IMG/VR virus record: IMGVR_UViG_2778261526_000005
Source of the DNA: a virus
Taxonomy: Duplodnaviria > Heunggongvirae > Uroviricota > Caudoviricetes
Direction: 5' to 3' (one strand)
Length of the DNA: 57,324 nt
In this document: positions 1 to 48,971 of the stretch, one piece after another
Numbering within the stretch: position 1 is the stretch's first letter
Layout of the letters: the number at the start of each line of letters is the position of its first letter
The notes under the pieces: generated by a model
Seen by the model: only the letters and a program-made list of their open reading frames with translations
What the model was told of the DNA's origin: nothing
Database searches by the model: none
Made by a program: the position numbers and the translations under genes

Positions 1-1476
1 TCAAGGCTGCCCAGTCTTACCAGCATCAGCAGAAACAGCTTTGAGGATATAGGGTTCCAGAAGTCTGGCAACGGCTTCAAATACTGGCACCACAACGGAG
101 TTACCGAACTGCCGATATGACTGAGTATCTGAAACCGGAATACGGAATGGTTTCCCTCCAGGTTTTTCAAACCCCATAAGGCGTGCGCACTCTCGGGGAG
201 TCAGCCTGCGTGGTCGACGAGCCTGGTTACTCTCATTCATAAAGTCAGCCTCTCCCGTTGCCATATCCCAACCACGATCAATAAGAATTTCTGATCCGTC
301 TTTGTGATATCTGGCAGAAAGTGTGCGTGCAATGCTTTCCTTATTCTCAGGATTGACCAACCCAAAGCCAAAACCATTCCCCTTGGCTGCATGCTTTTTG
401 GCGTAGTTATAAAGGTACTCCCATAGTTTTGGCGTAAGTATATATTTACTGTCGACTACAGGCTCCAGCAATTCACCAAATGATGGGCGGTGTTCCGGAT
501 AAAAACGACTGATATCACGCAAGGTAAACCCCTTGTGAATATTCAGATCTCGTCTAAATCCGACCAGAACAATGCGTTCACGATGCTGAGGCAAAAAATG
601 CTTCCCATCGATAATCTTTGGATCGTTTTTTCCCATTTCTGCAGCATCGGCAACTTCGTAGCCCAGCTCGTCAAGGGTCTCCATAATGACTTTGAAAGTT
701 TTACCCTTATCATGGCTCTTCAGATTTTTGACATTTTCCAGCACAAAAATTGCCGGTTTTTTTGCTCGTATAATACGTGCCACGTCAAAAAAAAGTGTTC
801 CTTGTGCTTCACATTCAAAACCATGCGCACGACCAAGTGAGTTTTTCTTACTAACACCAGCAAGGCTAAATGGCTGGCACGGGAACCCCGCAAGAAGCAC
901 ATCATGATCCGGCACATGCTCATCAATATATGCATAAGCATCCGTTTCCAATACATCGGTTTTATCACTCAGCGTGACTTCCCGAATATCGAGATTGAAT
1001 TTATGCACCTGTTCATCGTTAAACCAGTTGGCCTTGTATGTACGCACAGCATCTTTATTCCATTCACTGGTAAAAACACACTGACCTCCAATGGCCTCAA
1101 AACCTTTCCGTATCCCTCCAATTCCAGCAAATAAGTCAATGAAGCGGAAAGCATATTCCGGATGGTTTGCAGGTGGTTCTGGTAGCATCTTACGCAGAAG
1201 AGACTCTTCTACTGAAGTCAACGATTTTGGTAAACACTTGCCATTAATCCAGCGGTTAATGGTTTCACGGCTCCACTCATTTTTTCCGACTTTTCTCAGT
1301 AATTCAGCCACATACTTCTGATCATAGATTTCCAGCACTTTCTCGATAAGCTTTTTATCATTTTCCTGTCGCAGCTTTTCTTCCGCCTCGGCTTCCTTCA
1401 GCAGATGCTGTGCCAACACTTCAAATTCAGACATAATTCCTCCAAGGGGTCTAATGGGTGAAACTTTATCACTCAT
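1..1476 (-). CDS. DNA-cytosine C5-methyltransferase, Dcm/M.EcoRII-like (full length, stop at 1-3)
   Basis: Motif [11 protein letters not shown], motif [22 protein letters not shown]; collinear over whole length with E. coli Dcm as recalled. No vsr downstream. Confidence 0.85.
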
Positions 1477-1739: not shown

Positions 1740-2609
<870 letters not shown>

Positions 2610-2666
2610 GTCTTTAAGTGATAAGCATAAACCGCAGCACGATCTTGCATACGACGTGCTACGGTT

Positions 2667-3041
2667 TCATTTATCTCCGACCGGAAACTTCTTATACAGT
2701 GTCGATATACCAACATCATAGATGATCGCCACCTTCTGGCGAGGAACGCCTGATGCAATTAATCGTCCGGCCTGTGCCCATTGTTCTGGTGTAAGTTTGG
2801 GACGTCGTCCACCAATTCGTCCCTGTGCGCGAGCAGCTTCCAGGCCAGCTTTTGTTCGTTCAACAATCAGTTCTCGTTCCATTTCAGCCAGGGCACCCAT
2901 CACATGAAAGAAGAAGCGCCCCATAGGCGTACTCGTATCGATGCTATCCGTCAGGCTCCGGAAGTTAACACCTTTCTCCCGCAGTTCCTCCACTAACCCA
3001 ACAAGATGTCGCATGCTGCGACCGAGGCGGTCACGCTTTCA
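2667..3041 (-). pseudogene. Serine DNA invertase (Pin/Gin/Hin family) remnant; C-terminal part intact, premature TGA at the conserved Trp codon, N-terminus degraded
   Basis: Minus-strand reading GDTLVV*KRDRLGRSMRHLVGLVEELREKGVNFRSLTDSIDTSTPMGRFFFHVMGALAEMEREL matches Pin-type GDTLVVWKLDRLGRS...; TGA at 3039-3041; no intact catalytic N-terminus upstream. Confidence 0.7.
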
Positions 3042-3174
3042 GACCACCAGCGTATCGCCTTCAGATATGCATCCTTGCTAAACTTAGATCGCCGGTCACC
3101 AACTAAGCATGCAGTATGCGTTATGTTTTTTATTGCTCCCAGGGTAATGTGTCCACTAACTAAACAAGGAGATA

Positions 3175-3729
3175 GTGATGCTGCATACTATGAATTTCAC
3201 GGTGCCCGTAAATCAGTCCACCGTTAACGCTTTAATTAGCAATTGCCTTGGAGCTATCAATCAGGGGGCGACTGAGTTAAACATTTACATTTCCAGTCCG
3301 GGCGGTGACCTCGTTGCAGGTTTTACTGCTTATCACTTTCTAAAGGCCCTACCAATCCCAGTAAAGACCCATAACCTTAGCAATGTTGAATCAGTCGCTA
3401 ATATCATTTTTCTTGCAGGGTCTGAACGTAAGGCGAATCCTGGGAGTCGGTTCTTACTGCATCCTTTTCACTGGGGCTTGATGGGCCCAAGCGTGGATCA
3501 CTCACGCGTCAGTGAGTGGAGCGCGTGTCTCAATAATGACCTGGAGCGTTTTGTCGATATTTTGGAGAGTCAGATTGAGCTCAGTAAGAGCCGCAATGAG
3601 TGGAAGGAGGTTATCTCCGCCGCCACCATAGCCAATGCCTCCACAGCTCTGGATTGGGGGATGGTTCACGAGGTTGCCGCCGCCACTTACCCGCAGGCAC
3701 CCGGCACATACTGGTGGATTAACTGTTAA
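3175..3729 (+). CDS. ClpP-like (S14 family) serine peptidase homolog
   Basis: IYISSPGGDLVAGFTAYHFL resembles ClpP IYINSPGG; Ser in VESVAN and His in LLHPF at positions equivalent to the ClpP Ser/His; strong RBS AAGGAG upstream. Confidence 0.55.
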   Translation: MMLHTMNFTVPVNQSTVNALISNCLGAINQGATELNIYISSPGGDLVAGFTAYHFLKALPIPVKTHNLSNVESVANIIFLAGSERKANPGSRFLLHPFHWGLMGPSVDHSRVSEWSACLNNDLERFVDILESQIELSKSRNEWKEVISAATIANASTALDWGMVHEVAAATYPQAPGTYWWINC

Positions 3730-3888
3730 CATAATTACCTCTCAAATTTAAATTGGGCAGAGATGCCAGCATCCAGGCTCGCGCCTGGACGATTGTCTGA
3801 TGATGAAAAGTGCAGTTTAATCTGTGGCTGGATTATCTGGATGCACTGGAGCTGGTTGATACCTCCAGTGCGCCAGATATTGAATGGC

Positions 3889-4323
3889 CTACTCCTCCGG
3901 CAGTTCAGGCCAGATGACATCCGGTGCGGTGCTGGTATCTGTTGCCGTCACAGCGTCGATATAATCCAGCACAACGTTAAGTCGGGTAGTTTCTTCTTGC
4001 GTCAGTTTGCGCCCGGCCTGCAGCTTTAACTGAATCACGCTGATATTGACCATTGCTGCGTCTATCAACGACTGTTTTTTCTGTTCAGCGTCAGCTACCA
4101 GTTCATCATGAGAACGTTCCGGAGGGAGCGGCGCAGTAAATACCCCGTCTGAATACGCCCAGCCGATTCCGGGCTGCTCACTGATATCAGAAATATTAAT
4201 GAGCTGCAGATTATCCGGCACAGTGAATTCATCCTCGCCATCCCAGACAATGACATTCACAACCATCCCATTTTCAATAACTGCATATGACGCATTCATT
4301 ATGCAAACTCCTCGATAATACAA
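3889..4323 (-). CDS. Tail fibre assembly protein (Tfa)
   Basis: Position directly after tail fibre gene; C-terminal [10 protein letters not shown] typical of Tfa family. Confidence 0.7.
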
Positions 4324-5225
4324 ACCCCATCAGCACCTTTCCCGCCCGTCATACTGGTTCCGCTATAACCTGCATCGTATGCACCACCTCCGCCTGAACC
4401 AAATGCCCTGCCTCTAACGCCACCGCCAGCGCCTGCACGTCCACCGCCTCCCCAGTACGATGCACCGCCTTCACCGCTGACGCTGATATTCCCGGACTGA
4501 CCGTCGCCTCCATCTCCACCAGTGATGCGGATATCGCCAATATTCGGTACGCCTCCGTTACCGCCGTTTGTGTTTGTGACTCCTACTTTTCCGCCGCCTT
4601 CACCACCAGGGGCTATTACCGATCCGAACGAGCTATCACCGCCCTTGAGGCCGTTCGTCGCACCAACGCCGCCGGCCCCACCTGCGCCGATAGTGACAGG
4701 ATAACTATTCTGTGTCGGGGTCAGTATGGTGATTACTGTCCCTCCGGCCCCACCGCCAGCACCGAAAAACGTTTCGTTACTGGATATAGCCTGGCAGCCA
4801 CCCCCTCCGCCACCGCCGCCCGTTATTGTGACCCTGATCCGTTTTGTTTCTGGTGATGGGGTATACGTACCTGATGACGCGAAAGCCCGGGTACTCAGCC
4901 GGCGTCCCACGTATCCGCTTGTATCTCCCAAACCAAGGTTTTGAAGAGCCGTTTTCACCGTGCCGTCCGATTTGATATCGCCAAACGGATTTTTGCGACT
5001 TAACAGCAGCGCACGAAGCGCGGTAAGCAGCTGGTCATGCCGCCCCTTCTCCAGGCTGGCACCGGATGCCTCCACCACGCTGCAGAGCTCCTCCTGCAAC
5101 ATGTCAAAGTAGTCATCATCCAGATCGGTGGCAGGCGTGCCGGTCTGGGGGTTACCACGGGTAAAACCGTTCTTACCCGCGCCGAACTTATCCTTCTGCG
5201 CGGTTTTCGTGTCTATACGATGCAT
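4299..5225 (-). CDS. Glycine-rich tail fibre protein
   Basis: Conserved phage N-terminus [34 protein letters not shown] followed by long Gly-rich repeats. Confidence 0.7.
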
Positions 5226-5228
5226 GGA

Positions 5229-5813
5229 TTACTCCGGATATTTAAAAATTACGTAGGTATGCGACGGGCAGAGTTTGTTAAGCACGCACTCGATAACGGT
5301 GTCCCCCCAGATACGCAGTGCGGAATCGCAGGGATCGCCACATGTCATCCAGGTGGTGTTGGTGGCAGCTGGCATATTGACCTGCCAGTAATACCGCCAT
5401 TCCGGCGCATTCACCGCGTCAGTACAGGCCGATGAGCAGGTGAACGTGCTTTTGTCGTATCGCGTGATGGTGGCATCTGGTCTGCCCAGGGCAGCAAGCT
5501 GCGCAAGGTAAAAATCCTCATTGATGCCACCCGCCAGGTTAACCTTCGCATCCAGCCGTTGCTGACGCTGGCGAAGGGTCTGCGTCCCTGCCGGAATACA
5601 TTCATCCGGCAGGCCGCACAGACGCTCCCAGCGGTTTATCAGTTCGGTGGTGGTGCGCGGATCCAGCTCCCGCATCAGGGCATCCGCACGCTGATGAGCA
5701 CGGGTTAATGACGGTGCCGCACCGGCAATCGCCGGATCGCTGGCTGACCACGCCGGACCGGGGGGCAACAGTGCCGACAACAGACGGATGTAATCATCGT
5801 TTGTCACGTCCAT
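5229..5813 (-). CDS. Phage tail protein, Mu gp48/YmfQ-like (DUF2313)
   Basis: Position between baseplate J and tail fibre; family recalled from Mu-like prophages. Confidence 0.55.
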
Positions 5814-10286: not shown

Positions 10287-12122
10287 TTACCTGCCAAAGC
10301 GCGTATAGCCAACATCATGGCTGACATCAAAACCGCTGGATCGCGTTTCCATAACCCGCATACCCGGAGGCGAATTCACAAAAGAGACCTTGATCTCACC
10401 ATCAACTTTTGGCGCAGAAGCTTTGTTAATCATGAAGGGATTCGGGCCTGTGGCACCGGAGGCGTTGTTTGACTGAGCCGGATCCACCGCCTGATAAGGT
10501 GTGTATCCCCGTGCCGGTATTCCCGTCCCATAAGCATCATAAGCACCCGCGCCCCACTGCGCAGAGTTAATGGCATCGACCGTGTCACCGGAACTGTCGG
10601 TAAACCACTCAATAATTGGCTTCAGCTTGTCCCACATATCCTGAAACCACTTAACAACCGGTCCCCAGTTATTGATTACCATCCCCAGCGGCGACCAGGC
10701 AAAAACCTTCTTCAGAAGTTCCCAGCCAGCCTCAAAATAAGGACCAATGGTTTCCCAGAGCTTCTTGAAATAAGGTCCGACAACATCCCAGTTAGTGATA
10801 ATTAATCCCGCAGCCAGGGCTATCGCCGTCGCAATCATGCCAATCGGCGTCATCGACATGATCCTGCTGACAATACTGATGGCACCGCCAACGCCCATCA
10901 ATCCCAGTTTCAGAATCGCAAGACCGGCAGCAAGCCCGACGACGCCGCGAATAACCCGGGGATTTTCATCCGCAAACTTCGTGAATTTTTCCCCTAACTC
11001 CCCCAGCCATTGCGTGATATTTTGGGCGTCACCAGAAAATGCGCCGCCAATAGCTGCAAGACCGTTAGTTGCGGTCCCCGTCATTGCCTCCCACAGGTTG
11101 GACAGCGTACCAAGCTGTGCCTGAACACGTTTATTCAGGCTGGCCTGTTTATTCATCTTCTGCTGGATCTGATCGTAACCATCCTTTCCTTTATCGATCA
11201 GAGCATTGACCACCTGAAGGGTTTCAGCATCATCACCAAATATTGCCTTAAGTACACCTGTTCGCTTAACGTCGGTCAGTTTTCGCAGCTTTGCCAGTTG
11301 CTTAAACATGTTATCAAGACCGCCAAAACTCCCTTTGCCATCAGTAAAATCGAGCTGCACTCCGAGTTTCTGGCGGGCCATGACTTTATTGACGTCCCTG
11401 ATTTTCTTAACGCTTAATCCGGACTGGATAACTTTTCGCAGGGCATTACCTGCCGACTCCCCGTTCATCCCCATCTGATCCATCATGACGCTGATAGGGG
11501 CAAGGCTCTGTGCAGCCTGAAGTCCGTCCTTGTTCACCATCTTCAGAACAGAACTGGTTTTAGTGAAGAAAGACAACATGTTGGTATCGTCAACGCCCAG
11601 ATAAAACGCCTTCTGGATAGTGTCGAACAGCCCCATCATGTCTTCTGACGCCGTTCCGGTAGCATCCTGCATCTTTGCAGCAAACTCAGCAGCCGCTTCC
11701 GGTGTTTTTTTCAGTTGTACCGCAAGATAAGCTGTCGCTTTACCCACACCACCAAGAATGTTTTCTGCCGGGATCCCCTGACGCACCAGCATCTGCATCA
11801 TGTTCTGGAAATCAGCCGTTGTACCGGGTAGCTGGTTACCCAGGCCAATAGCCAGTTTATTGATGTCCTGAAAGCTCTTTCCAACCTCGCCGTTCGCATC
11901 CATCATGGCGACTTTCAGCCCGGTGGCGGCGTTTTCCTGATCGGCATAAGATTTCAGGGAAAGCGTCAGACCCGCTGCCAGTCCGCCACCAAGCGCCAGC
12001 CCACCCTGTGACGCTTCTTCCGCCTGGCGTTTAAATCCCCGGATTTTCTTTTGCATTTTCGACAGCGCGGGAGAAAGCCTGTCGACACCGGTGATCAACG
12101 CCTTAAGCTCAAATTCAGCCAT
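10287..12122 (-). CDS. Tail tape measure protein
   Basis: 611 aa, Ala/Gly-rich helical protein with C-terminal hydrophobic segments, after the frameshifted chaperone pair. Confidence 0.85.
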   Translation of the reverse strand: MAEFELKALITGVDRLSPALSKMQKKIRGFKRQAEEASQGGLALGGGLAAGLTLSLKSYADQENAATGLKVAMMDANGEVGKSFQDINKLAIGLGNQLPGTTADFQNMMQMLVRQGIPAENILGGVGKATAYLAVQLKKTPEAAAEFAAKMQDATGTASEDMMGLFDTIQKAFYLGVDDTNMLSFFTKTSSVLKMVNKDGLQAAQSLAPISVMMDQMGMNGESAGNALRKVIQSGLSVKKIRDVNKVMARQKLGVQLDFTDGKGSFGGLDNMFKQLAKLRKLTDVKRTGVLKAIFGDDAETLQVVNALIDKGKDGYDQIQQKMNKQASLNKRVQAQLGTLSNLWEAMTGTATNGLAAIGGAFSGDAQNITQWLGELGEKFTKFADENPRVIRGVVGLAAGLAILKLGLMGVGGAISIVSRIMSMTPIGMIATAIALAAGLIITNWDVVGPYFKKLWETIGPYFEAGWELLKKVFAWSPLGMVINNWGPVVKWFQDMWDKLKPIIEWFTDSSGDTVDAINSAQWGAGAYDAYGTGIPARGYTPYQAVDPAQSNNASGATGPNPFMINKASAPKVDGEIKVSFVNSPPGMRVMETRSSGFDVSHDVGYTRFGR

Positions 12123-17788: not shown

Positions 17789-18475
17789 TTAGAAGTTCAG
17801 ATTTTTCAGTGCATTCAGTGCAGAGCCCACATCCTCAGCGTCGCGCAGGGACAGTGCGCCATAGCCCCCGGCCATGAATGCTTTGGCCTGGGTACGGGAG
17901 AGTCCGACATCACGCAGGACTCTTTCGATTTTTTTCTGTTCGGGGATTTCCCCGCGGGCCAGTGCGTTCTTGACGTCGCTGATCCGCGCCTCGTCGTTAG
18001 ACGGGAACGTCACCAGGCTGACTTCCCAGAGGTCGATTTCTTTCAGCAGAAAGGCTTCTTTGCTCCGGTCGTATTCCCAGTCTTTCAGGACGTACCCAAT
18101 AGAAAGGCCGGTTAACGAACCGGCCTTCATGTGTGCATGTGCGCGTTTTGCGAGGGGATCATCATCAATAAGCAACCGTCCCCTGACGTAAAGCCCGACA
18201 TCGTCTTCCTTCATTTCGGTGTAAACACCGATGGGTTCATCCATGCGGTGCTGCCAGAGCAGCGCAGGTAACGCTTTTCTGTCACTCCACGCCCGCAGGG
18301 AAGCAGCAAATGCCCCGGACATCACCACATCATCGTGGCTGTCCTTTACACCAAAGACGGAGCCATACCCTTCAAACTCACCGGAGTCACTGACAGATTT
18401 CAGACTCAGCGGTACATCAAGACGTTGTTTCGTCTGCATTGGCGTTATCCTTCTGCTTACCGGCTTTACTGCCAT
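17789..18475 (-). CDS. Prohead protease, HK97 family (start may be an internal Met)
   Basis: Position between portal and capsid; family recalled. Confidence 0.8.
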   Translation of the reverse strand: MAVKPVSRRITPMQTKQRLDVPLSLKSVSDSGEFEGYGSVFGVKDSHDDVVMSGAFAASLRAWSDRKALPALLWQHRMDEPIGVYTEMKEDDVGLYVRGRLLIDDDPLAKRAHAHMKAGSLTGLSIGYVLKDWEYDRSKEAFLLKEIDLWEVSLVTFPSNDEARISDVKNALARGEIPEQKKIERVLRDVGLSRTQAKAFMAGGYGALSLRDAEDVGSALNALKNLNF

Positions 18476-35521: not shown

Positions 35522-35740
35522 GTGGAGAAACATATGCTGAACCTCGATTGTGTTCCAATCTCAACTTATTGCAAAGAAACTGGCGAAACTCCTGAAGCAA
35601 TAAACAAACGTGTACAGCGCGGTGTTTGGCGTGAAGGTGTTCAGGTTTTAAAGGTTGAAGGCGTTAAGGAGAGGTGGATTGATCTTAGTGAGGTTGCAAA
35701 ATGGGCCAGACAAAACTGCTCAAACTACCGCGCGGCGTAA
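35522..35740 (+). CDS. xis: Excisionase-like protein
   Basis: 72 aa directly upstream of and overlapping int. Confidence 0.5.
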   Translation: MEKHMLNLDCVPISTYCKETGETPEAINKRVQRGVWREGVQVLKVEGVKERWIDLSEVAKWARQNCSNYRAA

Positions 35741-36897
35741 CAATCAGGAAACACCGCCAGGGCGAAACGATCAATATAACTTTCACCTACAAAGGAGTTA
35801 AATGTCGTGAGCCTCTTTCCAATCTGGAAGTAACACCAAAGAACATTAAATACGCCGAGCGCACACTCGGCGAAATTCATAATAAGATCGAAAGGGGAAC
35901 ATTCATTTATGCGGAATATTTTCCCCGTTCTGCTCGTTTGAAAATTTTTGGTAATGCTGCTGCAGGCAAAACGGTAAAAATGTACCTGGACGAATACCTT
36001 GAAATCTGCGAAACGAGAAAACTCTCACCCTCAACGATTGGTGGTTATAAAAAATGCCGTAGTGCGTTAGCCTCACTCCACATTTGCCCTGCAAGTGAAT
36101 TAACACCAGCAATCCTGAAAGCGTGGATTCAAAGCCAGAAAACGACCTTAAAAACAATTCGCAACCAGTTATCTTTCCTGCGGTCAGCACTTGATGAAGC
36201 CGTAACCGATGGGATACTTCAAATTAACCCCGTATCGTTGGTAACTGCTTCGCGCTACCAAAGTGATAAGTCAGAAGCAGAAAGCTGCTACGTGGTTGAT
36301 CCGCTATCACCAACAGAAGTTGATGCATTACTAGCAGCAGCCGGAAACAAACAATGGGAGAATCTGTTCCGGTTCGCTATACATACAGGCCTGCGTAGTT
36401 CTGAATTATGTGCCCTTAGATGGCGTGATATCGACTTTGTTGGAAAAACTGCCCATGTCCAGAGTGCAAGTGTTGTCGGTGTTATCAAAGGAACAAAGAC
36501 AAAGGCCGGTACTCGTAAAGTTGAACTGACAGAAGAGGCTATGTTGGCGCTGATAAATCAGAAGCCATTTACATTCATGAAGGATGCTACTGTCTTTGAA
36601 GACCCAAAGACCAATAAGCCTTGGGCAAGTGCTGATGCAATCAGGAAAAAAGCATGGGTGCCAACATTACGGAAAGCAGGTATTCGATACAGAAATCCAT
36701 ATCAAACTAGGCATACATTCGCCACCAGCCATATCAGCCGAGGAGCAAATCTGTTTTGGCTTGCAGCTCAAATGGGGCATAAAGGGCCGGAAATGCTTTT
36801 CAGGCATTATGGTTCGTATCTCGTAGACTATGATGGCAAGACAGCTTGTAAGGACCAAGTATCAAAAAATCCGGAGAACATGAAAATTGAGAAGTAA
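35701..36897 (+). CDS. int: Tyrosine integrase (lambda Int family)
   Basis: Catalytic region with RHTFAT and HYGSY (His/Arg/Tyr). Confidence 0.9.
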   Translation: MGQTKLLKLPRGVTIRKHRQGETINITFTYKGVKCREPLSNLEVTPKNIKYAERTLGEIHNKIERGTFIYAEYFPRSARLKIFGNAAAGKTVKMYLDEYLEICETRKLSPSTIGGYKKCRSALASLHICPASELTPAILKAWIQSQKTTLKTIRNQLSFLRSALDEAVTDGILQINPVSLVTASRYQSDKSEAESCYVVDPLSPTEVDALLAAAGNKQWENLFRFAIHTGLRSSELCALRWRDIDFVGKTAHVQSASVVGVIKGTKTKAGTRKVELTEEAMLALINQKPFTFMKDATVFEDPKTNKPWASADAIRKKAWVPTLRKAGIRYRNPYQTRHTFATSHISRGANLFWLAAQMGHKGPEMLFRHYGSYLVDYDGKTACKDQVSKNPENMKIEK

Positions 36898-37087: not shown

Positions 37088-38353
37088 ATGTTGATTGAGT
37101 TTACAGTACAAAACTATAAATCTATTTCAGAGAAACAAACACTGAGTTTAGTTGCATCAAAACTTAACGATTTGCCTAATAATCTGTTCAGTATTGATGA
37201 ACCTAAATCTCTTGAATTGCTTAAAAGTGCTGTGATTTATGGCCCTAATGCTGCCGGAAAATCAAACATTATTAACGCTATTACAACTATGGCTGAACTT
37301 ATTGTCCGGTCTGCTACAGGTTATAAAAGTGGTGATAAACTTGATATCACGCCTTTTAGACTAGACTCAAAGAAGATTAATCAACCATCTGAATTTGAAA
37401 TTAACTTTATTTCCGAAGGCATCAGATACCAGTATGGTTTTTCTGCAACAGAAGATTTTATTCACGACGAATGGTTATTTGCATTCCCCAAAGGCAGACC
37501 ACAAAAATGGTTTTTACGTCTATGGGATGAAGAAAAACAAACCCATGAATGGGAGTTGGGGCCATCGTTGACAGGAGAAAAACAAACATGGTTGAAATCA
37601 ACCAGGCCTAATGCGCTCTTTCTTTCTACAGCGGTACAATTAAACAGTGTACAACTAAAACCTGTATACGATTGGTTTTATTACAAAGTTAAATTTACTG
37701 AATTAACAGGTTGGGATAGTGATTACAGTGCAAAGCAATGCTTAAATGATAAGAAAGATGAGATTCTCAATTTTTTAAAAGCTGCCGATGTAGGTATTGA
37801 TGACATTCATGTAACAAAAGAAAAATTCAATCCCAATGCTCTTCCTGATGATATGCCTGCAGCCATCAAGGAACTAGTGATTAAGAATATGCAAGGCAAG
37901 GAAGAATATGTCATTAAAACACTTCATAATAATGAGGATGGAGAGCCAATTCCATTCGATTTAAAAGATGAATCGCATGGAACTAGAAAAATCTTTAGTT
38001 TCGCGGGTCCCTTATCACATTCACTCGAGACAGGAAACATCCTGTTTATTGATGAATTAAATGATAACTTACACCCCAAATTAGTTGAGTTTATTGTAGG
38101 TTTATTTCACGATAAAAATATCAATAAGAATGGTGCCCAGTTAATCTTTACAACTCATGAGACGTCTATTTTAAATCAAGATGTTTTCAGACGAGATCAG
38201 ATTTGGTTTGTAGAAAAAGACAATTCAAAGCAAACAAATCTTTTCCCACTTACGGATTTTAGTCCAAGAAAAGGAAGGGAGAATTTAGAAGCTTCTTATC
38301 TTGACGGTAGATATGGGGCTTTACCACTCATTGGGAAATGGGAGAGATATTAA
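37088..38353 (+). CDS. AAA/ABC-type ATPase (AbiLi-like, OLD-family ATPase module)
   Basis: Walker A GPNAAGKSN; Walker B ILFIDELNDNLHP. Confidence 0.65.
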   Translation: MLIEFTVQNYKSISEKQTLSLVASKLNDLPNNLFSIDEPKSLELLKSAVIYGPNAAGKSNIINAITTMAELIVRSATGYKSGDKLDITPFRLDSKKINQPSEFEINFISEGIRYQYGFSATEDFIHDEWLFAFPKGRPQKWFLRLWDEEKQTHEWELGPSLTGEKQTWLKSTRPNALFLSTAVQLNSVQLKPVYDWFYYKVKFTELTGWDSDYSAKQCLNDKKDEILNFLKAADVGIDDIHVTKEKFNPNALPDDMPAAIKELVIKNMQGKEEYVIKTLHNNEDGEPIPFDLKDESHGTRKIFSFAGPLSHSLETGNILFIDELNDNLHPKLVEFIVGLFHDKNINKNGAQLIFTTHETSILNQDVFRRDQIWFVEKDNSKQTNLFPLTDFSPRKGRENLEASYLDGRYGALPLIGKWERY

Positions 38354-39039
38354 TGGGAAGCGAAGATCTGTTCAAAAAAAGAAAGGCTCGGCGTAATAAT
38401 GAATTCAAACGAGTTAGTAAAGCACGAGCTCAAATGAAGAAAATTCTTATCGTCTGTGAGGGAGAGAAGACTGAGCCCGCATATTTTACAGATTTTATAA
38501 AACATTGCCGTATAAGCACGGCAAGCATAGTTGAGATTTCTGGAGAGTGCGGCTCAAGCCCTATGAATGTGGTATCTTGGGCAAAAGAAAAATATAATAC
38601 GGAAAAAAAAAGGAGCGACCCTTATGATAAGGTTTATTGTGTCTTTGATAGAGACGCTCACCCTAACTATGATGAAGCTCTTAGCAGGATTAATTCCTTA
38701 AATCCAAAAGGGATTTTTGTTGCTATAACTTCCATACCATGTTTCGAGTACTGGCTGATACTACATTTTGGATACACCCGAAAATCATTTTCACCTCAGA
38801 AAGGCAAAAGTGAAGGCGCACAAATGCTAGCTGAGTTAAAAAAATACATGCCAGATTATGAGAAAAAGGCATCAGGTGTATTTAATAAATTGCAAGATCG
38901 GCTCGATACGGCATTAATCAATGCTAAAAGAGTCGAAGATGCCGCCAAAAAAGACGGTTCGATAAATCCTTCAACTAAAGTTGGCGCTTTGATTACAGAT
39001 CTAATTAACATTCGTGATGACTTTGAAAATGAGAAGTAA
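38338..39039 (+). CDS. RloB-like (TOPRIM-like) protein, AbiLii-like
   Basis: ILIVCEGEKTEPAYF matches the RloB motif as recalled; overlaps the ATPase gene. Confidence 0.6.
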   Translation: MGEILMGSEDLFKKRKARRNNEFKRVSKARAQMKKILIVCEGEKTEPAYFTDFIKHCRISTASIVEISGECGSSPMNVVSWAKEKYNTEKKRSDPYDKVYCVFDRDAHPNYDEALSRINSLNPKGIFVAITSIPCFEYWLILHFGYTRKSFSPQKGKSEGAQMLAELKKYMPDYEKKASGVFNKLQDRLDTALINAKRVEDAAKKDGSINPSTKVGALITDLINIRDDFENEK

Positions 39040-39379: not shown

Positions 39380-40579
39380 GTGGCACGGACAACACGCCCC
39401 CTGACCAACACCGAAGTTCTGCGCGCGAAAGCGTTAGAGAAGGATCTAACGCTGCATGATGGCGATGGGCTTTTCCTGATAGTGAAAACTAGCGGCAAGA
39501 AACTCTGGCGCTTTCGCTATCAACGCCCAGCAACAAAACAGCGGACTATGATGGGACTTGGTGCTTTTCCTGCCCTTTCTCTTGCTGATGCCCGAGGGTT
39601 AAGAGCAGATTACCTTGCCCTATTAGCCAACGGAATCGACCCGCAAATTCAAGCTGAAGTTGCAGAGGAACAGCAGCAAATCGCTCTGGACAGTATTTTT
39701 TCGACGGTCGCCGCTAACTGGTTCCAGCTCAAAAGCAAAAGCGTTACCCATGATTACGCTAAAGATATATGGCGTTCACTGGAAAAAGACGTATTCCCCA
39801 CCATCGGGGAGATCCCTGTCCAGCAAATCAAAGCCCGAACACTGGTTGAAGCCCTTGAACCGATCAAAGCTCGTGGGGCGCTGGAGACGGTGCGCCGGTT
39901 GGTGCAGCGTGTTAACGAGATAATGATTTATGCCGTAAATACTGGTCTTATTGATGCCAATCCAGCATCAGGCATTGGAATGGCCTTTGAGAAGCCAAAA
40001 AAACAAAATATGCCTACGTTGCGCCCAGAAGAATTGCCTATGCTGATGCGTTCTCTCGTCATGTCAAATTTGTCTGTTCCGACTCGCTGCCTCATTGAGT
40101 GGCAACTCCTGACTCTAGTTCGTCCTTCTGAGGCTTCCGGTGCTAGGTGGGCTGAGCTCGATCTCGATGCAAAGCTCTGGACTATCCCAACTGAACGAAT
40201 GAAGGCTAAGCGGGAACACATAGTCCCTCTATCTCCTCAGGCATTAGAGATTCTTGATGTGATGAAGCTAATCAGTGCCCATCGTGAACATGTTTTCCCG
40301 AGTCGGAATGACCCAAAGCAACCAATGAATAGCCAGACGGCAAATGCTGCTTTAAAAAGGATTGGATTTGGTGGTAGATTGGTTGCTCATGGATTGCGTT
40401 CAATTGCCAGCACCGCATTAAATGAAGCGGGTTTTAATGCAGATGTAATTGAGGCTGCTCTTGCACATAGTGATAAAAATGAAGTGCGCAGAGCATATAA
40501 TCGTTCAACTTACCTTGAGCAACGAATAGGACTTATGAATTGGTGGGGCCAAAAAGTGTACGAGCGCAATCAATATTAG
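39380..40579 (+). CDS. Tyrosine integrase, P4/CP4-57 IntA-like (GTG start)
   Basis: Closely resembles E. coli IntA as recalled; AGGAG RBS. Confidence 0.9.
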   Translation: MARTTRPLTNTEVLRAKALEKDLTLHDGDGLFLIVKTSGKKLWRFRYQRPATKQRTMMGLGAFPALSLADARGLRADYLALLANGIDPQIQAEVAEEQQQIALDSIFSTVAANWFQLKSKSVTHDYAKDIWRSLEKDVFPTIGEIPVQQIKARTLVEALEPIKARGALETVRRLVQRVNEIMIYAVNTGLIDANPASGIGMAFEKPKKQNMPTLRPEELPMLMRSLVMSNLSVPTRCLIEWQLLTLVRPSEASGARWAELDLDAKLWTIPTERMKAKREHIVPLSPQALEILDVMKLISAHREHVFPSRNDPKQPMNSQTANAALKRIGFGGRLVAHGLRSIASTALNEAGFNADVIEAALAHSDKNEVRRAYNRSTYLEQRIGLMNWWGQKVYERNQY

Positions 40580-40608
40580 TTAACTTGTTATACATGGAGA
40601 TATAGTTC

Positions 40609-41067
40609 ATGGAGAATAATCTAGATAATTTATGTTATGAATTCTTTAGAGAGTTTTCACGTTATGAATATTGCCTTAAGGCATGTGGACTTCATCATAA
40701 AATAAAAGATGCTAAAGCGAACTGGGATGAGTATGCAAAGCAAGTTTCTGAAATCATAAATAACACAACTGATCCAGAGCTAATTGCTGCTATCACCTAC
40801 TTTAAAGAACACCCACCCAAAAAACAAATCATAGAAGATGACTCTTTAGTTTGGGATGATTCTTTACCACAAGAAAAAGATTTAGCAAAATTTCTTTTTT
40901 TGTTAATCCGCCGTGTAAGAAACAATCTTTTTCACGGAGGAAAATTTAACGGGAAATGGTTTGAACCTGAACGTAGTGAGGCGTTACTGCAACATGGCCT
41001 TGTTATTTTGAGGCATTGCGGCACAAGGCATAGTGAAGTAAGCAAAGCCTATTCTGGAATAGCCTGA
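40609..41067 (+). CDS. Hypothetical 152-aa protein in int-psu hotspot
   Basis: AT-rich ORF convergent with the helicase gene. Confidence 0.45.
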   Translation: MENNLDNLCYEFFREFSRYEYCLKACGLHHKIKDAKANWDEYAKQVSEIINNTTDPELIAAITYFKEHPPKKQIIEDDSLVWDDSLPQEKDLAKFLFLLIRRVRNNLFHGGKFNGKWFEPERSEALLQHGLVILRHCGTRHSEVSKAYSGIA

Positions 41068-41159
41068 GCGGTGTTATAAAAGAGAAGTTTTTGTTACTGG
41101 AAGAATGATAAAATTCAAAAACTTCTCTATTGATTGTTTAAAAAATCGTCTAAATAAGA

Positions 41160-43742
41160 CTATTGTACCCAAAAGTTACGAAATATATTATGTATTTCGT
41201 TTTGAACTAATTGTGGCAGTTCTTCCATGTCAACTTTATTGTCCTTAATCCAATTAATGCATTCTTCCTCATCTAAACTATCATTAGGAATAAGCTCTGA
41301 AATCATTACAGCAGCAGTTCTTGAAAAGCCAAGCCCTATTAGTGAAATCTGAGTTTTTAAACTTACACCCAGTTCTAAATAAACACCGATATCTTCAACA
41401 TCTTTTGCTAAGTCTGTGCGATCTATCGAAAGATAAAAGCTTTTTAATAAATCATTATAACATCCTAAAAGCCTTGGAGCTTGATAGCGAGCGATCTCTT
41501 CAACATCCTTCATAACCCCTCGTATTAAAGTCGCTTCTTTGAAAACAATATTTTTCTTTTTGTTATATCTTATTCTATCCGAGATCAATCTTGCTAGGGG
41601 ATAACCTTTCATCCACTTGGAAACTAACAAGGCCTGTACGTAAGCTCCTTTTGAATTATAACCTAGCTTCTTACTCAGAGTATCACTAATTCTAGAGAAT
41701 GCGGATACATATGAATCTAACGCATCATTACTACCAGGTTCAGAAAGCAGTAATCTCTCTACAGGTTTGTTTGTATCCCGCGAAAATCTATCCCAAAGGT
41801 TTTGCATTAAAAGCGGGCTTATACCAGGATGCCGCACAACCAATTCGTGTGGAAAAGTTAAAGAATCAAAAACATCAAATATTGCTTCATTTAAAACATC
41901 GATATTTTTTATATTGTACTTTTCCATGTAAGGATTATTATCCAAGCCATTATAAAAATAAAATGATGAACATAAATAACTAAATAGACTCTGGAGATTA
42001 GGATTCCGCTCAGACATACCAAAATGATGCTCTGAAAAAATATAGGAAACCAACTTATCCATGTCATGGGAAATAGCATCCGTGGCGCGAGTTATAAATA
42101 TATTTTTTTTGGTTTTTGGAGGCTCTCCATTCCAAATTTTTTCATTGTCGCTATCGATGCAGATGACATTACCTTGGAATTCTTTTCCCCAACGACCAGC
42201 TCTGCCAGCAAGATTCCAAAAATCCTCTTCTCGCATCGGGGTTGAATTACCCTTTTTAGGGCCTCTTATAAAAATATTTTTACAAGCCATGTTTACGCCC
42301 TCAACTAAAGTTGAGGTACAAATTAAAAAATCAATCTTACCTTTACTAAACAATCGTTCAATCTCGCCCTTTATTATTAAAGGCATGTTGCCATAATGAA
42401 AAGCGACTCTCTTTTTTAGAGTGCGATTTAATGCGAAATTTTTATGTATAATTGTCTCACTAAGCTCAACGAGAGCTAAAATTTCTTCATCCTCAGTCTC
42501 ATTTTCTATACTTGCAGATATTAGCTTGGAAGTAGATTCTGCTTCAGCGGCTCCATTTACGTAAACTACGTTACCAGAAGCCCCCTTACCTAAACAAAGA
42601 GCTACAAAAGGCAATCTTTTACTTTCAGGAGATGGTGCATTTTCTAAAGAAAAGTTTCCTAACTCGCGTTTTTCACCGTTTGCAAAATAATACATCAACC
42701 AATCTTTGGTCTTGCGTGGTTTTTGTTCTACCCATATTAAATTTTGATTAACTGTAACATAGTCACTTTTTATAGTTCTTTTGTTTTTTAATATTGGAGC
42801 ATCACTGAGCAATATTTCAGGATTTAAGGTGAAAGGACTTGCAAAGATAACTTTTGAATCAGGGTTATTTAGACAAGTCAGTTCAATTACATGTTGAAGA
42901 ATAACACCTCTTCCACCATCACCGATCTTGTGTGCTTCATCAACAACTAAGACGTCTATCTTTGGAATTTGTGAGAAATGATTGTAGAATAAATTTAATC
43001 TTTCCTGTGTAAATATGAAGACATTAGATTTTTCGCTCTGGTATACATTACTCAATGGTAGTGTCTGAATATTAACTATATTTGTTAAATTAGGATCCAA
43101 ACGTTTTTGCAACTCAGAATATACTTCTGAAATCAATGCCCTTGTTGGTACGATATAAATAACTAAGCAATTCTTATTTCTTTTTACAAACTGCTCCACC
43201 CAAGATTCCAGGATAAATGATTTTCCTACAGAGGTAGGAGCAGAGACACTAACCCATGAGTTTTCTTGTACCGCATCCCAAAACTCTGATTGAAACCTAT
43301 TAGCATAAATATGCTTATCAGCATCTATTTCAATTGTATATAGAATTTTTCTTTTAGTTAGTTCTAACTGAGCCTTTAAGGGTAATCTTTCTTCGAAATC
43401 AGGGTTAAGATACCCCCTATTTTCAGCAAGTTGTATTGCTGGATTATTAGATAATGAATCAAGAATTAATGCAGCACTATCTTTTCTTGCTTCACTTTTT
43501 TCATTCAATAAGCAATACTGTGCAATCCTTAAGGCTGCATCTTGGCATTTCTCATCACTTGAGAAAGCCAAAGAACTAGCACATGTTAAAAGATAGCCGA
43601 CATCCTCAGAACTAATCTGTGGGATTACATCTGATTTTAACTCTGGAAATTGATCTTTTATCGAGTTAGCGACTAATGCCTGATATTTTCTTAAGAATCC
43701 TTGATTCTTAATCAACCACCCAGATAAATCTCGCAACGACAT
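41160..43742 (-). CDS. Superfamily II helicase, Hachiman HamB-like
   Basis: Motif I SAPTSVGKSF, motif II VVDEAHKI, motif VI-like AGRAGRWG. Confidence 0.6.
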   Translation of the reverse strand: MSLRDLSGWLIKNQGFLRKYQALVANSIKDQFPELKSDVIPQISSEDVGYLLTCASSLAFSSDEKCQDAALRIAQYCLLNEKSEARKDSAALILDSLSNNPAIQLAENRGYLNPDFEERLPLKAQLELTKRKILYTIEIDADKHIYANRFQSEFWDAVQENSWVSVSAPTSVGKSFILESWVEQFVKRNKNCLVIYIVPTRALISEVYSELQKRLDPNLTNIVNIQTLPLSNVYQSEKSNVFIFTQERLNLFYNHFSQIPKIDVLVVDEAHKIGDGGRGVILQHVIELTCLNNPDSKVIFASPFTLNPEILLSDAPILKNKRTIKSDYVTVNQNLIWVEQKPRKTKDWLMYYFANGEKRELGNFSLENAPSPESKRLPFVALCLGKGASGNVVYVNGAAEAESTSKLISASIENETEDEEILALVELSETIIHKNFALNRTLKKRVAFHYGNMPLIIKGEIERLFSKGKIDFLICTSTLVEGVNMACKNIFIRGPKKGNSTPMREEDFWNLAGRAGRWGKEFQGNVICIDSDNEKIWNGEPPKTKKNIFITRATDAISHDMDKLVSYIFSEHHFGMSERNPNLQSLFSYLCSSFYFYNGLDNNPYMEKYNIKNIDVLNEAIFDVFDSLTFPHELVVRHPGISPLLMQNLWDRFSRDTNKPVERLLLSEPGSNDALDSYVSAFSRISDTLSKKLGYNSKGAYVQALLVSKWMKGYPLARLISDRIRYNKKKNIVFKEATLIRGVMKDVEEIARYQAPRLLGCYNDLLKSFYLSIDRTDLAKDVEDIGVYLELGVSLKTQISLIGLGFSRTAAVMISELIPNDSLDEEECINWIKDNKVDMEELPQLVQNEIHNIFRNFWVQ

Positions 43743-43743
43743 T

Positions 43744-44685: not shown

Positions 44686-45110
44686 GAGTAGGTCCTTGCA
44701 TATTTTATTTTCCTCATCATTTGCAATATATACTTATTTCAATAGCTTGCAACATTTTTACTCGACAATGATACTTACACCACACTCGCTGCTTAAAATC
44801 ATTGTTATCGCTTTAACGTGATAAACGATTCTTTCAATCAGGTACTCATTGAAAGTTAAAAGTTACTTTGACCATACACAGCGTGCGCTGCCCCGCCCGC
44901 CTGCCCGCTTCACTTAACAGACTGGTTTTCATGCACCCCGTAAATCGTCTCAGAAGCCACCACACAAGGGCTTTCGCGTCAAAAATGGCGCATGAGACTC
45001 ATGCGTTTTCATGCGCTATAGATATGCACTCATACGCCTTCAGGCCAGCCAGGGAAAAGGCGTAAAAAATCCCGGTACTGGACCGGGACTACGTGGGCGT
45101 ATTTTGCTAA

Positions 45111-45383: not shown

Positions 45384-45384
45384 A

Positions 45385-46721: not shown

Positions 46722-46760
46722 TTGTGCCGATGCCCATACAAGCGCACTACCGAGGGGGAT

Positions 46761-48957: not shown

Positions 48958-48971
48958 GGGAGAACTGCATC

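What the first reader, a model, noticed from the sequence alone, without database searches (positions are those of the whole stretch)
2667..3729. ClpP-like peptidase beside a decayed tail-fibre invertase
The invertase has a TGG to TGA change at the conserved Trp codon and a degraded N-terminus. Where an invertible alternate fibre segment would normally lie there is a plus-strand ClpP-like peptidase with a strong RBS and Ser/His at positions equivalent to those of ClpP. The phage already has an HK97 prohead protease, so this looks like accessory cargo.
Basis: partly seen in the sequence, partly recalled or inferred. Interest (0 to 1): 0.5.

Follow-up and report, generated by a model that had tools for sequence, protein, structure and literature searches.

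The report
Prophage cargo gene: truncated ClpP-type peptidase
An E. coli prophage has lost half of its tail-fibre switching cassette and carries there an intact, conserved gene for a shortened ClpP-type protease, one of a family that hops between prophages as stand-alone cargo and has not been studied in phages.

Summary
Window 2667-3068(-) is the C-terminal 133 codons of a Pin/Gin invertase. It has TGA in place of Trp61, and its first 51 codons, including the catalytic Ser, are deleted. Window 3178-3729(+) is an intact 183-aa gene with AAGGAG 6 nt upstream of the ATG. It sits where the alternate fibre half of an e14-type invertible segment should be. One gix-like site survives inside the fibre gene.

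The protein belongs to Pfam CLP_protease. It lacks about 26 N-terminal residues of mature ClpP and keeps Ser and His, but has Ala where ClpP has the catalytic Asp. Its nearest characterised relative is Pseudomonas plecoglossicida ClpP1 (PDB 9UXT; TM 0.93). That protein is a wide-pored tetradecamer of low activity that does not bind ClpX and co-assembles with canonical ClpP.

dN/dS is about 0.05-0.09. Relatives occur as single genes in at least six prophage settings. In 37 of 80 viral contigs the gene overlaps an mnt-like repressor gene by 4 nt.

It is not the head protease, because the phage has its own S78 enzyme. Its role is untested: no defence model matches it and I found no paper on it. 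It is a new member of a known kind, of moderate interest.

The parts
2667..3068 (-). Remnant of a Pin/Gin-family serine invertase: the C-terminal 133 codons, comprising the end of the resolvase domain and the HTH_7 domain. The first 51 codons, with the catalytic Ser, are deleted.
   Evidence: Pfam Resolvase 1e-21 (profile positions 79-144 only) and HTH_7 1.9e-13. blastn to e14 pinE covers 2666-3067 at 83.6%. Protein alignment pairs it with PinE residues 52-184. RefSeq marks it as a pseudogene.
3039..3041 (-). In-frame TGA at the position of the conserved Trp61 of PinE (GDTLVV*K).
   Evidence: Translation, alignment, and the sequence itself (+ strand TCA).
3109..3177 (+). Leader that travels with the gene: 66 nt shared with the 90%-identical allele, containing the RBS AAGGAG at 3166-3171. 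No convincing sigma-70 promoter was found.
   Evidence: blastn homology to L015-L018 starts at 3109. The promoter scan finds nothing on the + strand in 3015-3175. RBS read from the sequence.
3178..3729 (+). Intact gene for a 183-aa N-terminally truncated ClpP-type (MEROPS S14) peptidase. Ser is at 3391-3393, His at 3460-3462, and Ala at 3622-3624 in place of the catalytic Asp. The C-terminal YWWINC motif is conserved.
   Evidence: Pfam CLP_protease. phmmer to PDB 9UXT 5.5e-38. AF2 model pLDDT 91.5. Foldseek 9uxt_A TM 0.93, rmsd 1.7 A. Alignments. dN/dS 0.05-0.09.
3781..3917 (+). 3' remnant of the second (inverted) tail-fibre-assembly gene tfa'. It marks the right edge of the replaced stretch.
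   Evidence: RefSeq pseudogene 'tail fiber assembly protein, frameshifted, missing N-terminus'. Homology to the e14 tfaP/tfaE 3' ends covers 3818-4074.
3889..4323 (-). Active tail-fibre-assembly gene.
   Evidence: Pfam Caudo_TAP 3.4e-21.
4299..5225 (-). Glycine-rich tail-fibre gene (StfP-type constant N-terminus plus variable C-terminus).
   Evidence: Pfam Gly_rich_2 7.2e-14. The constant part 4926-5400 is 94-96% identical to L015 and L017, starting exactly at the gix-like site.
4926..4944 (-). Surviving gix/pix-like crossover site (TCAAAACCTTGGTTTGGGA) at the constant/variable junction of the fibre gene. Its partner next to pin has been deleted.
   Evidence: It is the only zero-mismatch match to the pattern in the window. 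In relatives it pairs with an inverted copy beside the invertase.
1785..2609 (+). Neighbouring cargo: a PD-T4-3 GIY-YIG defence gene. It lies on the same strand as the ClpP-like gene, upstream of it.
   Evidence: PADLOC PD-T4-3 2.7e-140. Pfam LEM-3_GIY-YIG.
17789..18439 (-). The phage's own prohead protease (HK97 type). It shows that the ClpP-like gene is not needed for head maturation.
   Evidence: Pfam Peptidase_S78 1.1e-31. RefSeq 'HK97 family phage prohead protease'.

Best explanation
Shown. The gene at 3178-3729 is a functional, self-contained accessory gene (a moron) of an e14-like prophage integrated at ssrA. An illegitimate replacement removed the 5' third of pin, the pin-proximal crossover site, the alternate fibre C-terminus and most of the second tfa gene (window about 3068-3817). 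The ClpP-type gene with a 66-nt leader was left in their place. The fibre cassette is now frozen and the invertase is dead.

Inferred from the homologue PpClpP1 (PDB 9UXT). The protein assembles into a ClpP-like double-heptamer chamber that uses a Ser-His pair. It lacks the N-terminal gating loops and helix. By my recalled residue list it also lacks most of the hydrophobic pocket that binds ClpX or ClpA. It would therefore have a wide open pore and low intrinsic activity, and it would not dock an unfoldase itself. It most likely acts either alone on peptides and unfolded chains, or stacked on a ring of host ClpP, which would change the output of host ClpXP/ClpAP.

Inferred from context. It is expressed from the prophage in the lysogen. 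It alters host proteolysis to the prophage's benefit, either by excluding competing phages or by stabilising lysogeny. It does not serve virion assembly.
For: Structure and chemistry
- Pfam CLP_protease is above its cut-off.
- The best solved relative is 9UXT, at 5.5e-38.
- The AF2 model has pLDDT 91.5 and superposes on 9uxt_A at TM 0.93 and 1.7 A, against about 0.82 for canonical ClpPs.
- Ser and His are invariant in the 31-sequence alignment and kept in 136 of 138 wider family members. The Asp position is A/G/P/R/S in the commonest classes, with no Asp among the eight commonest residues listed.
- Window residue 4 aligns with mature E. coli ClpP residue 27.
- Six of eight pocket residues of E. 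coli ClpP are replaced by polar or small residues (the residue list is from my memory).

Properties of PpClpP1 (PMC12900304)
- It is a tetradecamer with a 42.7 A pore.
- Ser and His are essential; the third residue is dispensable.
- It does not bind ClpX.
- It forms a heterotetradecamer with canonical ClpP that degrades substrates faster with ClpX.

The gene is functional
- dN/dS is 0.09 at dS 0.56 against the 90% allele, and 0.04-0.09 for further pairs.
- It is intact and 99-100% identical in 25 complete E. coli genomes.

Moron behaviour
- DNA homology between contexts is confined to the CDS and RBS.
- Lone copies lie beside tail genes in an Enterobacter P2-like prophage, between Rz/LysC and terminase in Klebsiella prophages, beside fibre or baseplate genes in Chromobacterium and Pantoea, and in the P22-type immI module.
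- In 74 of 80 IMG/VR loci the downstream gene is convergent.
- In 37 of 80 an Arc/Mnt-type repressor gene overlaps the start by 4 nt, with a divergent Arc and a P22 antirepressor alongside. In P22, mnt is a lysogen-expressed gene (established knowledge).
- Neighbouring genes are often toxin-antitoxin or defence cargo.

Breakpoints.
Against: - No expression or activity data exist for any phage-borne member.
- No sigma-70 promoter was predicted upstream in the window.
- No PADLOC model matches the protein, and no paper links the family to phage biology.
- Identity to PpClpP1 is only 40-45%, and the third 'triad' residue differs (Ala here, Pro there).
- Co-assembly with E. coli ClpP is extrapolated from one Pseudomonas pair.
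- The Pseudomonas clade is chromosomal, among stress-type genes rather than in phages, so the biological role need not transfer.
Confidence: 0.6

Rival explanations
1. It is a dedicated single-gene anti-phage defence or superinfection-exclusion factor. The open-pored peptidase, alone or with host ClpP, would destroy proteins of an incoming phage, for example unfolded ejected proteins or unstable replication initiators.
For: It sits in positions where prophages keep defence cargo. In the window these are PD-T4-3, a Dcm-type methylase and the frozen fibre cassette at the prophage end. The same slot in e14 carries mcrA. Other copies lie beside the fibre-assembly gene of P2-like prophages, at the lysis/terminase junction and in the mnt operon of P22-like phages. 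Neighbours include Panacea/SocA and YafO toxin-antitoxin genes.
Against: There is no hit in PADLOC-DB. The word 'Clp' does not occur in the main text of the two P2/P4 hotspot surveys I checked. Guilt by association is weak for prophage morons, which also carry virulence, regulatory and counter-defence genes. No sensor or partner gene is conserved.
Confidence: 0.25
2. It is a regulator of the prophage's own switch. It would degrade or buffer the antirepressor (Ant) or another unstable regulator, which would explain why it is wired to mnt.
For: In 37 of 80 viral loci it is translationally coupled to an Arc/Mnt-type gene inside an arc-ant module. That module travels with it into both P22-like and lambda-like genomes.
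Against: The window and the P2-like, Klebsiella, Pantoea and Chromobacterium contexts show no mnt, arc or ant next to the gene. The link to Ant is therefore not obligatory. The mnt operon may simply be a convenient lysogen-expressed transcript.
Confidence: 0.1
3. It has a virion-related function. It might be a leftover or second head-maturation protease, as automatic annotation of phiv205-1 says. It might instead be a fibre-maturation protease linked to glycine-rich fibres.
For: PHROG 94 'head maturation protease' gives 1.6e-27. NCBIfam Clp_rel_HeadMat gives 2.8e-13. Three contexts lie beside Gly_rich_2 fibres.
Against: The NCBIfam score of 50 is far below the cut-off of 120. The gene is never next to portal or capsid genes in the loci inspected. 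It is usually convergent with the structural gene downstream of it. The window's phage has its own S78 protease. Many contexts have no glycine-rich fibre. The best structural match is a cellular ClpP paralogue.
Confidence: 0.05
4. It is a decaying, non-functional passenger: a pseudogene in the making, like the invertase next to it.
For: Its neighbours pin and tfa' are pseudogenes. The catalytic Asp is missing. No promoter was predicted.
Against: The frame is intact and the RBS is ideal. dN/dS is 0.04-0.09 over pairs reaching saturation at synonymous sites. Ser and His are conserved in 136 of 138 family members. The gene is intact in 25 E. coli genomes. Lack of Asp is a family trait that is compatible with activity.
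Confidence: 0.03

Closest known systems
Pseudomonas plecoglossicida ClpP1 (PpClpP1; PDB 9UXT; PMC12900304)
   Same: Both are about 183 aa. Both lack the N-terminal loops and helix. Ser73 and His96 are at identical positions and both have a non-Asp third residue. Identity is 40% in the Foldseek alignment (42-45% to members of the same clade in MAFFT), with predicted-fold TM 0.93.
   Different: The third residue is Ala here and Pro in PpClpP1. The window protein belongs to an Enterobacterales clade carried by prophages. The PpClpP1 clade is chromosomal in Pseudomonas, beside KGG, DUF2383, DUF72 and PLD-type genes. Oligomer state, activity and pairing with host ClpP are untested for the phage clade.
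Canonical ClpP (E. coli ClpP, MEROPS S14, TIGR00493)
   Same: Same fold, with TM about 0.82. Same nucleophile Ser and general-base His. Pfam PF00574 is above its cut-off.
   Different: Identity is only about 20%. About 26 N-terminal residues of the mature protein are missing. Asp171 is replaced by Ala. Six of eight unfoldase-pocket residues are not conserved. The NCBIfam equivalog scores are 28-44 bits against cut-offs of 228-361. The gene is on a prophage.
ClpP-related phage head-maturation proteases (NF045542, PHROG 94)
   Same: They are distant sequence relatives and are also phage-encoded.
   Different: The score is below the curated cut-off. The gene is a lone gene away from the head module, and the phage already has an S78 prohead protease.
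e14 / Mu-type invertible tail-fibre cassette (stfP-tfaP | tfaE-stfE | pinE; Mu S-U-U'-S'-gin)
   Same: The gene order and strands are the same. A gix-like site lies at the constant/variable junction of the fibre gene. The pin homologue is 83.6% identical over its 3' 400 nt.
   Different: The alternate fibre half is replaced by the ClpP-type gene. The invertase lacks its catalytic N-terminus and carries a stop codon. One crossover site is gone, so the cassette cannot invert.
Lambda RexB as a lysogen-expressed modulator of host ClpP-dependent proteolysis (recalled from the literature, not checked here)
   Same: It is a prophage gene expressed in lysogens that changes what host Clp proteases degrade. 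This is a functional precedent for the proposed role.
   Different: RexB is an unrelated membrane protein and an inhibitor. The present gene encodes a protease subunit homologue.

Membership tests
ClpP / peptidase S14 (Pfam PF00574) | Sequence match above Pfam's gathering score | tested here: met
   49.7 bits against 20.2, covering residues 7-169.
ClpP / peptidase S14 (canonical, ATP-dependent) | Ser-His-Asp catalytic triad | tested here: not met
   Ser and His align with E. coli ClpP S97 and H122. The D171 position is Ala.
ClpP / peptidase S14 (canonical, ATP-dependent) | N-terminal axial loops and helix A that gate the pore and contact the unfoldase | tested here: not met
   The protein starts at the equivalent of mature E. 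coli ClpP residue about 24-27. The model begins with strand 1.
ClpP / peptidase S14 (canonical, ATP-dependent) | Hydrophobic pocket for the IGF/LGF loops of ClpX or ClpA | tested here: not met
   Y60, F82, I90, F112, L114 and L189 are replaced by N, A, H, K, N and A. Only Y62 and M92 (as L) are kept. The residue list is from memory.
ClpP / peptidase S14 (canonical, ATP-dependent) | NCBIfam equivalog or subfamily score above cut-off | tested here: not met
   The best score is 44.4 bits against 228. TIGR00493 gives 28.2 against 308.6.
PpClpP1-type short ClpP (PDB 9UXT) | Length of about 183 aa, N-terminal truncation, Ser73/His96 with a non-Asp third residue | tested here: met
   phmmer 5.5e-38, with Ser73 and His96 at matching positions and only two 1-residue gaps later in the alignment. 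The third residue is Ala.
PpClpP1-type short ClpP (PDB 9UXT) | Same three-dimensional fold | tested here: met
   AF2 pLDDT 91.5. Foldseek rank 1 is 9uxt_A, with TM 0.93/0.94 and rmsd 1.7 A over 183 columns.
PpClpP1-type short ClpP (PDB 9UXT) | Tetradecamer, low Ser/His-dependent peptidase activity, no ClpX binding, heterocomplex with canonical ClpP | not testable with these tools
   Known only for PpClpP1 (PMC12900304). Biochemistry is needed.
ClpP-related head maturation protease (NF045542) | Score above cut-off and location in the head module | tested here: not met
   50.2 bits against 120. The gene lies between the invertase remnant and tail-fibre genes. The head module has an S78 protease.
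Pin/Gin/Hin serine invertase (the neighbour at 2667-3068) | Complete resolvase domain with catalytic Ser near the N-terminus, open frame, and two inverted crossover sites | tested here: not met
   Only Pfam Resolvase profile positions 79-144 are present. PinE residues 1-51 are absent and there is a stop at W61. Only one gix-like site remains.
Phage moron (independent accessory gene) | Present or absent between related phages, found in unrelated genome positions, homology confined to the gene | tested here: met
   At least six contexts. The alignment shows similarity only from the RBS to the stop codon. It occurs in 159 of 5426 E. coli genomes.
Phage moron (independent accessory gene) | Own promoter and terminator | tested here: inconclusive
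   No sigma-70-like site upstream and no T-tract terminator downstream in the window. By eye, clear terminator hairpins follow the gene in phiv205-1 and Chromobacterium. In many phages it rides on the mnt transcript.
Known anti-phage defence systems (PADLOC-DB v2) | Match to a model of a known or candidate defence protein | tested here: not met
   0 families at E <= 0.1.

The most novel reading that the evidence does not exclude
Temperate phages of Enterobacterales carry a captured, gate-less ClpP subunit as a lysogen-expressed gene. In P22-like phages it is hard-wired into the mnt operon. Its product would stack onto host ClpP rings and reprogram ClpXP/ClpAP proteolysis. It would thereby act as a new single-gene system for superinfection exclusion or for control of the lysogenic switch. 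In relatives with an intact invertase and both crossover sites (for example GCA_048591945.1), its orientation relative to the late tail operon could even be switched by DNA inversion.
Probability: 0.2. Interest if true: 0.7.

Novelty: new member of a known kind. Interest (0 to 1): 0.42.

Why it matters
ClpP is the core of a major bacterial protease and is a drug target. ClpXP also decides the fate of phage proteins such as lambda O and the Mu repressor, and of several antitoxins (from memory, not checked here).

A family of truncated ClpP subunits that moves between prophages as single-gene cargo is under strong purifying selection. It is often co-transcribed with a lysogeny repressor. Together these suggest that phages tamper with host Clp proteolysis by supplying their own chamber subunit.

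The only characterised family member (PpClpP1, 2026) shows that such a subunit can co-assemble with canonical ClpP and raise its output. Nobody appears to have looked at the phage-borne clade.

For annotation, the finding also matters in a practical way. These genes are currently labelled 'ATP-dependent Clp protease proteolytic subunit' or 'head maturation protease'. Neither label fits the evidence.

The locus is also a clean example of cargo replacing half of an invertible fibre cassette, after which the invertase decays. Relatives show invertases of 187, 147 and 88 aa, or none.

Tried and rejected
(1) Fusion of the fibre constant part to the ClpP-type ORF after inversion. In relative L017 the frame entering from the crossover site reads ENLGLGEVLGDFLLKVDIPTQYT and then stops, about 140 nt before the gene (hand translation of the sequence). 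No fusion would form, so I rejected this.

(2) Natural inversion of the ClpP-bearing segment.
- A chimeric junction query found no full-length match in 5426 E. coli genomes.
- The exact junction patterns for both orientations gave 0 hits in IMG/VR.
- An orientation-neutral pattern adjoining the crossover site gave 0 hits in JGI metagenomes.
- All 10 contigs inspected with the 90% allele have the same orientation, including 3 with a full-length invertase.
This is inconclusive, because the arrangement is rare in these collections.

(3) A conserved promoter or leader across contexts. There is none: homology starts at the RBS, apart from 66 nt shared with the closest allele.

(4) A conserved partner gene. 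None is universal. The mnt-like gene is present in 37 of 80 viral loci only.

(5) Literature. Five searches and term look-ups in two hotspot surveys gave no report on phage-borne short ClpPs. The only relevant paper is PMC12900304.

(6) Coordinates from NZ_CP081192.1. They stop mapping beyond about 40 kb, because the window's P4-like satellite carries different cargo (error, resolved).

(7) One context look-up (P0058) found no record.
Full report
**What is there**

The window is an E. coli prophage region integrated beside ssrA. Window 2500-4400 is 100% identical to E. coli EC1722-1 (NZ_CP081192.1) and two other genomes. RefSeq annotation of that genome gives the gene order. In window coordinates and strands it is:

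- a Dcm-type methylase, 1-1476(-)
- a GIY-YIG gene, 1785-2609(+), which PADLOC identifies as PD-T4-3 (2.7e-140)
- an invertase remnant, 2667-3068(-)
- the ClpP-type gene, 3178-3729(+)
- a fragment of a second tail-fibre-assembly gene, 3781-3917(+)
- the active tfa, 3889-4323(-)
- a glycine-rich fibre, 4299-5225(-)
- YmfQ/gp48, baseplate J and the rest of a Mu-like contractile tail
- a lambdoid head module with an HK97-type prohead protease, 17789-18439(-), Pfam Peptidase_S78 1.1e-31

**The invertase**

The minus-strand translation reads ...GDTLVV*KRDRLGRSMRH...GDK. Alignment to e14 PinE pairs it with PinE residues 52-184 and places the stop opposite Trp61. That codon is + strand TCA at 3039-3041.

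DNA homology to pinE ends at 3067. The first 51 codons, which include the catalytic serine, are therefore absent rather than mutated. So are the promoter region and the pin-proximal crossover site. The enzyme is dead twice over.

**Position relative to a normal cassette**

e14 of K-12 has stfP-tfaP | tfaE-stfE | pinE-mcrA. In the window's orientation this predicts pin(-), alternate fibre end(+), tfa'(+), tfa(-), fibre(-). The ClpP-type gene occupies the place and strand of the alternate fibre end plus most of tfa'.

Homology to the e14 tfa 3' ends resumes at 3818. A perfect gix-like site (TCAAAACCTTGGTTTGGGA) survives at 4926-4944 inside the fibre gene. The fibre's constant part is 94-96% identical to relatives from exactly that site onward. 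This is the signature of a crossover junction. The replaced stretch is about 3068-3817.

**The protein**

The start is ATG 3178, with AAGGAG 6 nt upstream. GTG 3175 is too close to the RBS. All homologues begin MLHT.

- Pfam CLP_protease is above its cut-off. NCBIfam ClpP equivalogs and the ClpP-related head-maturation model are all far below theirs.
- Against the PDB, one entry stands out: 9UXT at 5.5e-38, with canonical ClpPs at 1e-9 or weaker.
- An AlphaFold2 model built on 27 homologues has mean pLDDT 91.5. It superposes on 9uxt_A at TM 0.93 and 1.7 A, against about 0.82 for ordinary ClpPs.
- Alignment with E. coli ClpP puts Ser73 on Ser97, His96 on His122 and Ala150 on Asp171. This numbering counts from GTG 3175; subtract one for the real protein. 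Residue 4 aligns with mature residue 27, so the axial loops and helix A are missing.
- Six of eight residues that I recall as forming the ClpX/ADEP pocket of E. coli ClpP are replaced by N, A, H, K, N and A.
- A C-terminal WW motif is conserved in the close family. Its role is unknown.

**What 9UXT is**

PMC12900304 describes P. plecoglossicida ClpP1. It is 183 aa and N-terminally truncated, with a Ser73-His96-Pro151 arrangement. It forms a homotetradecamer with a 42.7 A pore. Its catalytic efficiency is 13-fold lower than that of the canonical paralogue.

Ser and His are essential. Changing Pro to Ala or Asp leaves about 60% of the activity. The protein does not bind ClpX. It forms a stable heterotetradecamer with the canonical ClpP, and that complex degrades substrates faster with ClpX.

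**The family**

A profile search of 1.84 billion representatives finds 95 clusters at E <= 1e-30 and 2344 at E <= 1e-10, mostly 180-195 aa. In 138 aligned members Ser and His are each kept in 136, and the commonest residues at the Asp position are A, G, P, R and S.

Two clades matter here.

- A Pseudomonas clade (40-47% identity, including PpClpP1) is chromosomal, one copy per species. It often lies beside KGG-repeat, DUF2383, DUF72 and PLD-type genes rather than in prophages.
- The Enterobacterales clade (50-100% identity) is phage-borne, with 123 confirmed hits in IMG/VR.

**Contexts of the phage clade**

1. e14-like fibre cassettes, as in the window.
2. Enterobacter P2-like prophages, between gpU and the fibre-assembly gene.
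3. Klebsiella lambdoid prophages, between Rz/LysC and the small terminase.
4. Chromobacterium and Pantoea prophages, beside fibre or baseplate genes.
5. P22-like phage phiv205-1, in the immI region.
6. Lambda-like PhiR12 phages, where the same immI-type module sits between tail genes L and K.

In 80 IMG/VR loci the downstream gene is convergent in 74. In 37 an 82-aa Arc/Mnt-type ribbon-helix-helix gene lies directly upstream on the same strand with a 4-nt overlap. A divergent Arc and a P22-type antirepressor flank it.

DNA similarity between contexts begins at the RBS and ends at the stop codon. Neighbours include Panacea/SocA and YafO toxin-antitoxin genes. No universal partner gene exists.

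**Selection and frequency**

dN/dS is 0.091 against the 90% allele (dS 0.56) and 0.04-0.09 for further pairs. The window's allele is present at >=99% identity in 25 of 5426 complete E. coli genomes. One genome has an 80-90% allele and 133 have a distant allele. Every record listed that carries the window allele also shows the recombinase (invertase) remnant beside it, which is consistent with a single replacement event.

**Relatives with a live cassette**

The 90% allele (P0002) lies in invertase(-) | ClpP(+) | short tfa(-) | glycine-rich fibre(-) modules on at least two different baseplate backgrounds. In L017 the invertase is full length (187 aa, with the YVRVST catalytic motif).

An inverted repeat brackets a 1.6-kb segment that contains the ClpP-type gene. 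Its arms are AAAGGTTGGTTTGGGA beside the invertase and TCCCAAACCAAGGTTT in the fibre gene. Homology to ordinary invertase-fibre loci ends a few bases past the invertase-side repeat.

Inversion would give a truncated fibre and would put the ClpP-type gene in the sense of the late operon. It would not make a fusion (hand translation). Other copies have invertases of 147 or 88 aa, or none.

My reading is inference. Once cargo replaced the alternate fibre, inversion became harmful and the invertase decayed repeatedly. I found no inverted copy, but the arrangement is too rare in the collections for that to mean much.

**How it most likely works**

Shown: the gene is intact and constrained. It encodes a ClpP-fold protein with Ser and His, without Asp and without the N-terminal gate. 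It moves between prophages as a single gene.

Inferred from PpClpP1: it forms a double-ring chamber with an open pore, has low intrinsic activity and does not dock an unfoldase. It possibly stacks on host ClpP.

Inferred from context: it is expressed in the lysogen. The coupling to mnt supports this, as does its convergent orientation to the structural or lysis gene downstream of it. In the window it lies on the same strand as PD-T4-3, with no predicted terminator between them. Its role would be in phage-phage or phage-host conflict, not in assembly.

Whether it protects against other phages, tunes the prophage switch or alters host physiology cannot be decided here.

**Comparison with known things and verdict**

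The protein is a member of Pfam PF00574. It is a member of the PpClpP1-type short ClpP group by sequence, architecture and predicted fold. It fails the tests for a canonical ATP-dependent ClpP subunit: no Asp, no N-terminal gate, little of the unfoldase pocket, and equivalog scores below cut-off. It also fails the test for a ClpP-related head protease.

No PADLOC model matches it, and no paper in the library deals with phage-borne members.

I rate it a new member of a known kind. It is real and biologically coherent, and worth a bench test, but it is not a new class of system on present evidence.

Noticed in passing
window 1785-2609 (+), 1-1476 (-): The prophage end next to ssrA is a small defence island. 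It holds a PD-T4-3 GIY-YIG gene (PADLOC 2.7e-140) and a Dcm-type cytosine methylase (type II MTase model, 4e-230). The partner restriction endonuclease lies just outside the window in NZ_CP081192.1. e14 carries mcrA in the equivalent slot.
   Followed up: partly
window 37088-38353 (+) and 38338-39039 (+): An AbiL-type two-gene system (AbiLi 4.2e-101, AbiLii 3.2e-29 in PADLOC) sits just past the prophage integrase at 35701-36897. RefSeq calls these genes an AAA ATPase and an RloB family protein.
   Followed up: partly
window 39380-51305: This is a P4-like satellite, with integrase, psu/delta/sid-type genes and primase by RefSeq annotation of the related genome. Its hotspot carries a Hachiman system: HamB at 41160-43742(-) and HamA at 43744-44685(-). 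In NZ_CP081192.1 the same slot holds an nSTAND1 (Avs-type) NTPase instead. The window is therefore not from that strain. IMG/VR contig IMGVR_UViG_2778261542_000002 (57,194 nt) has the ClpP-type gene at the same coordinates and may be the source.
   Followed up: partly
L165 5374-5922 (+) and 6 other IMG/VR loci: In 7 Klebsiella-type loci a 182-aa gene with no Pfam hit lies directly upstream of the ClpP-type gene on the same strand. It contains an RNKRSH stretch that resembles an Rx4H HEPN motif. It may be another accessory or abortive-infection gene, but this is untested.
   Followed up: no
L133/L138 (IMG/VR), downstream of the ClpP-type gene: A Panacea/SocA antitoxin-domain gene with a 139-aa partner lies directly downstream of the mnt-ClpP unit in P22-like and lambda-like phages. 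In other loci a YafO-type toxin gene does. The immI-side moron slot collects toxin-antitoxin cargo.
   Followed up: no
window 3730-3732 and family C-termini (window codons 3712-3726): A C-terminal aromatic motif (YWWINC, NWWVTC, RWWVL) is conserved in the phage clade. It is modelled as a short edge strand (residues 178-182). Canonical ClpP has nothing equivalent, and its role is unknown.
   Followed up: no
L005-L008 (Enterobacter P2-like prophages): The FI-FII-E-T-U tail gene block is inverted relative to the V-W-J-I-H-G block, compared with the P2 gene order as I recall it. The ClpP-type gene lies at the junction. The junction may be a rearrangement-prone cargo site.
   Followed up: no
phiv205-1 (MN340231.1) 10718-11254; RefSeq WP_016244976.1: Public annotation of this family is inconsistent: 'head maturation protease', 'ATP-dependent Clp protease proteolytic subunit' or 'hypothetical protein'. 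The evidence here supports none of the specific names.
   Followed up: yes
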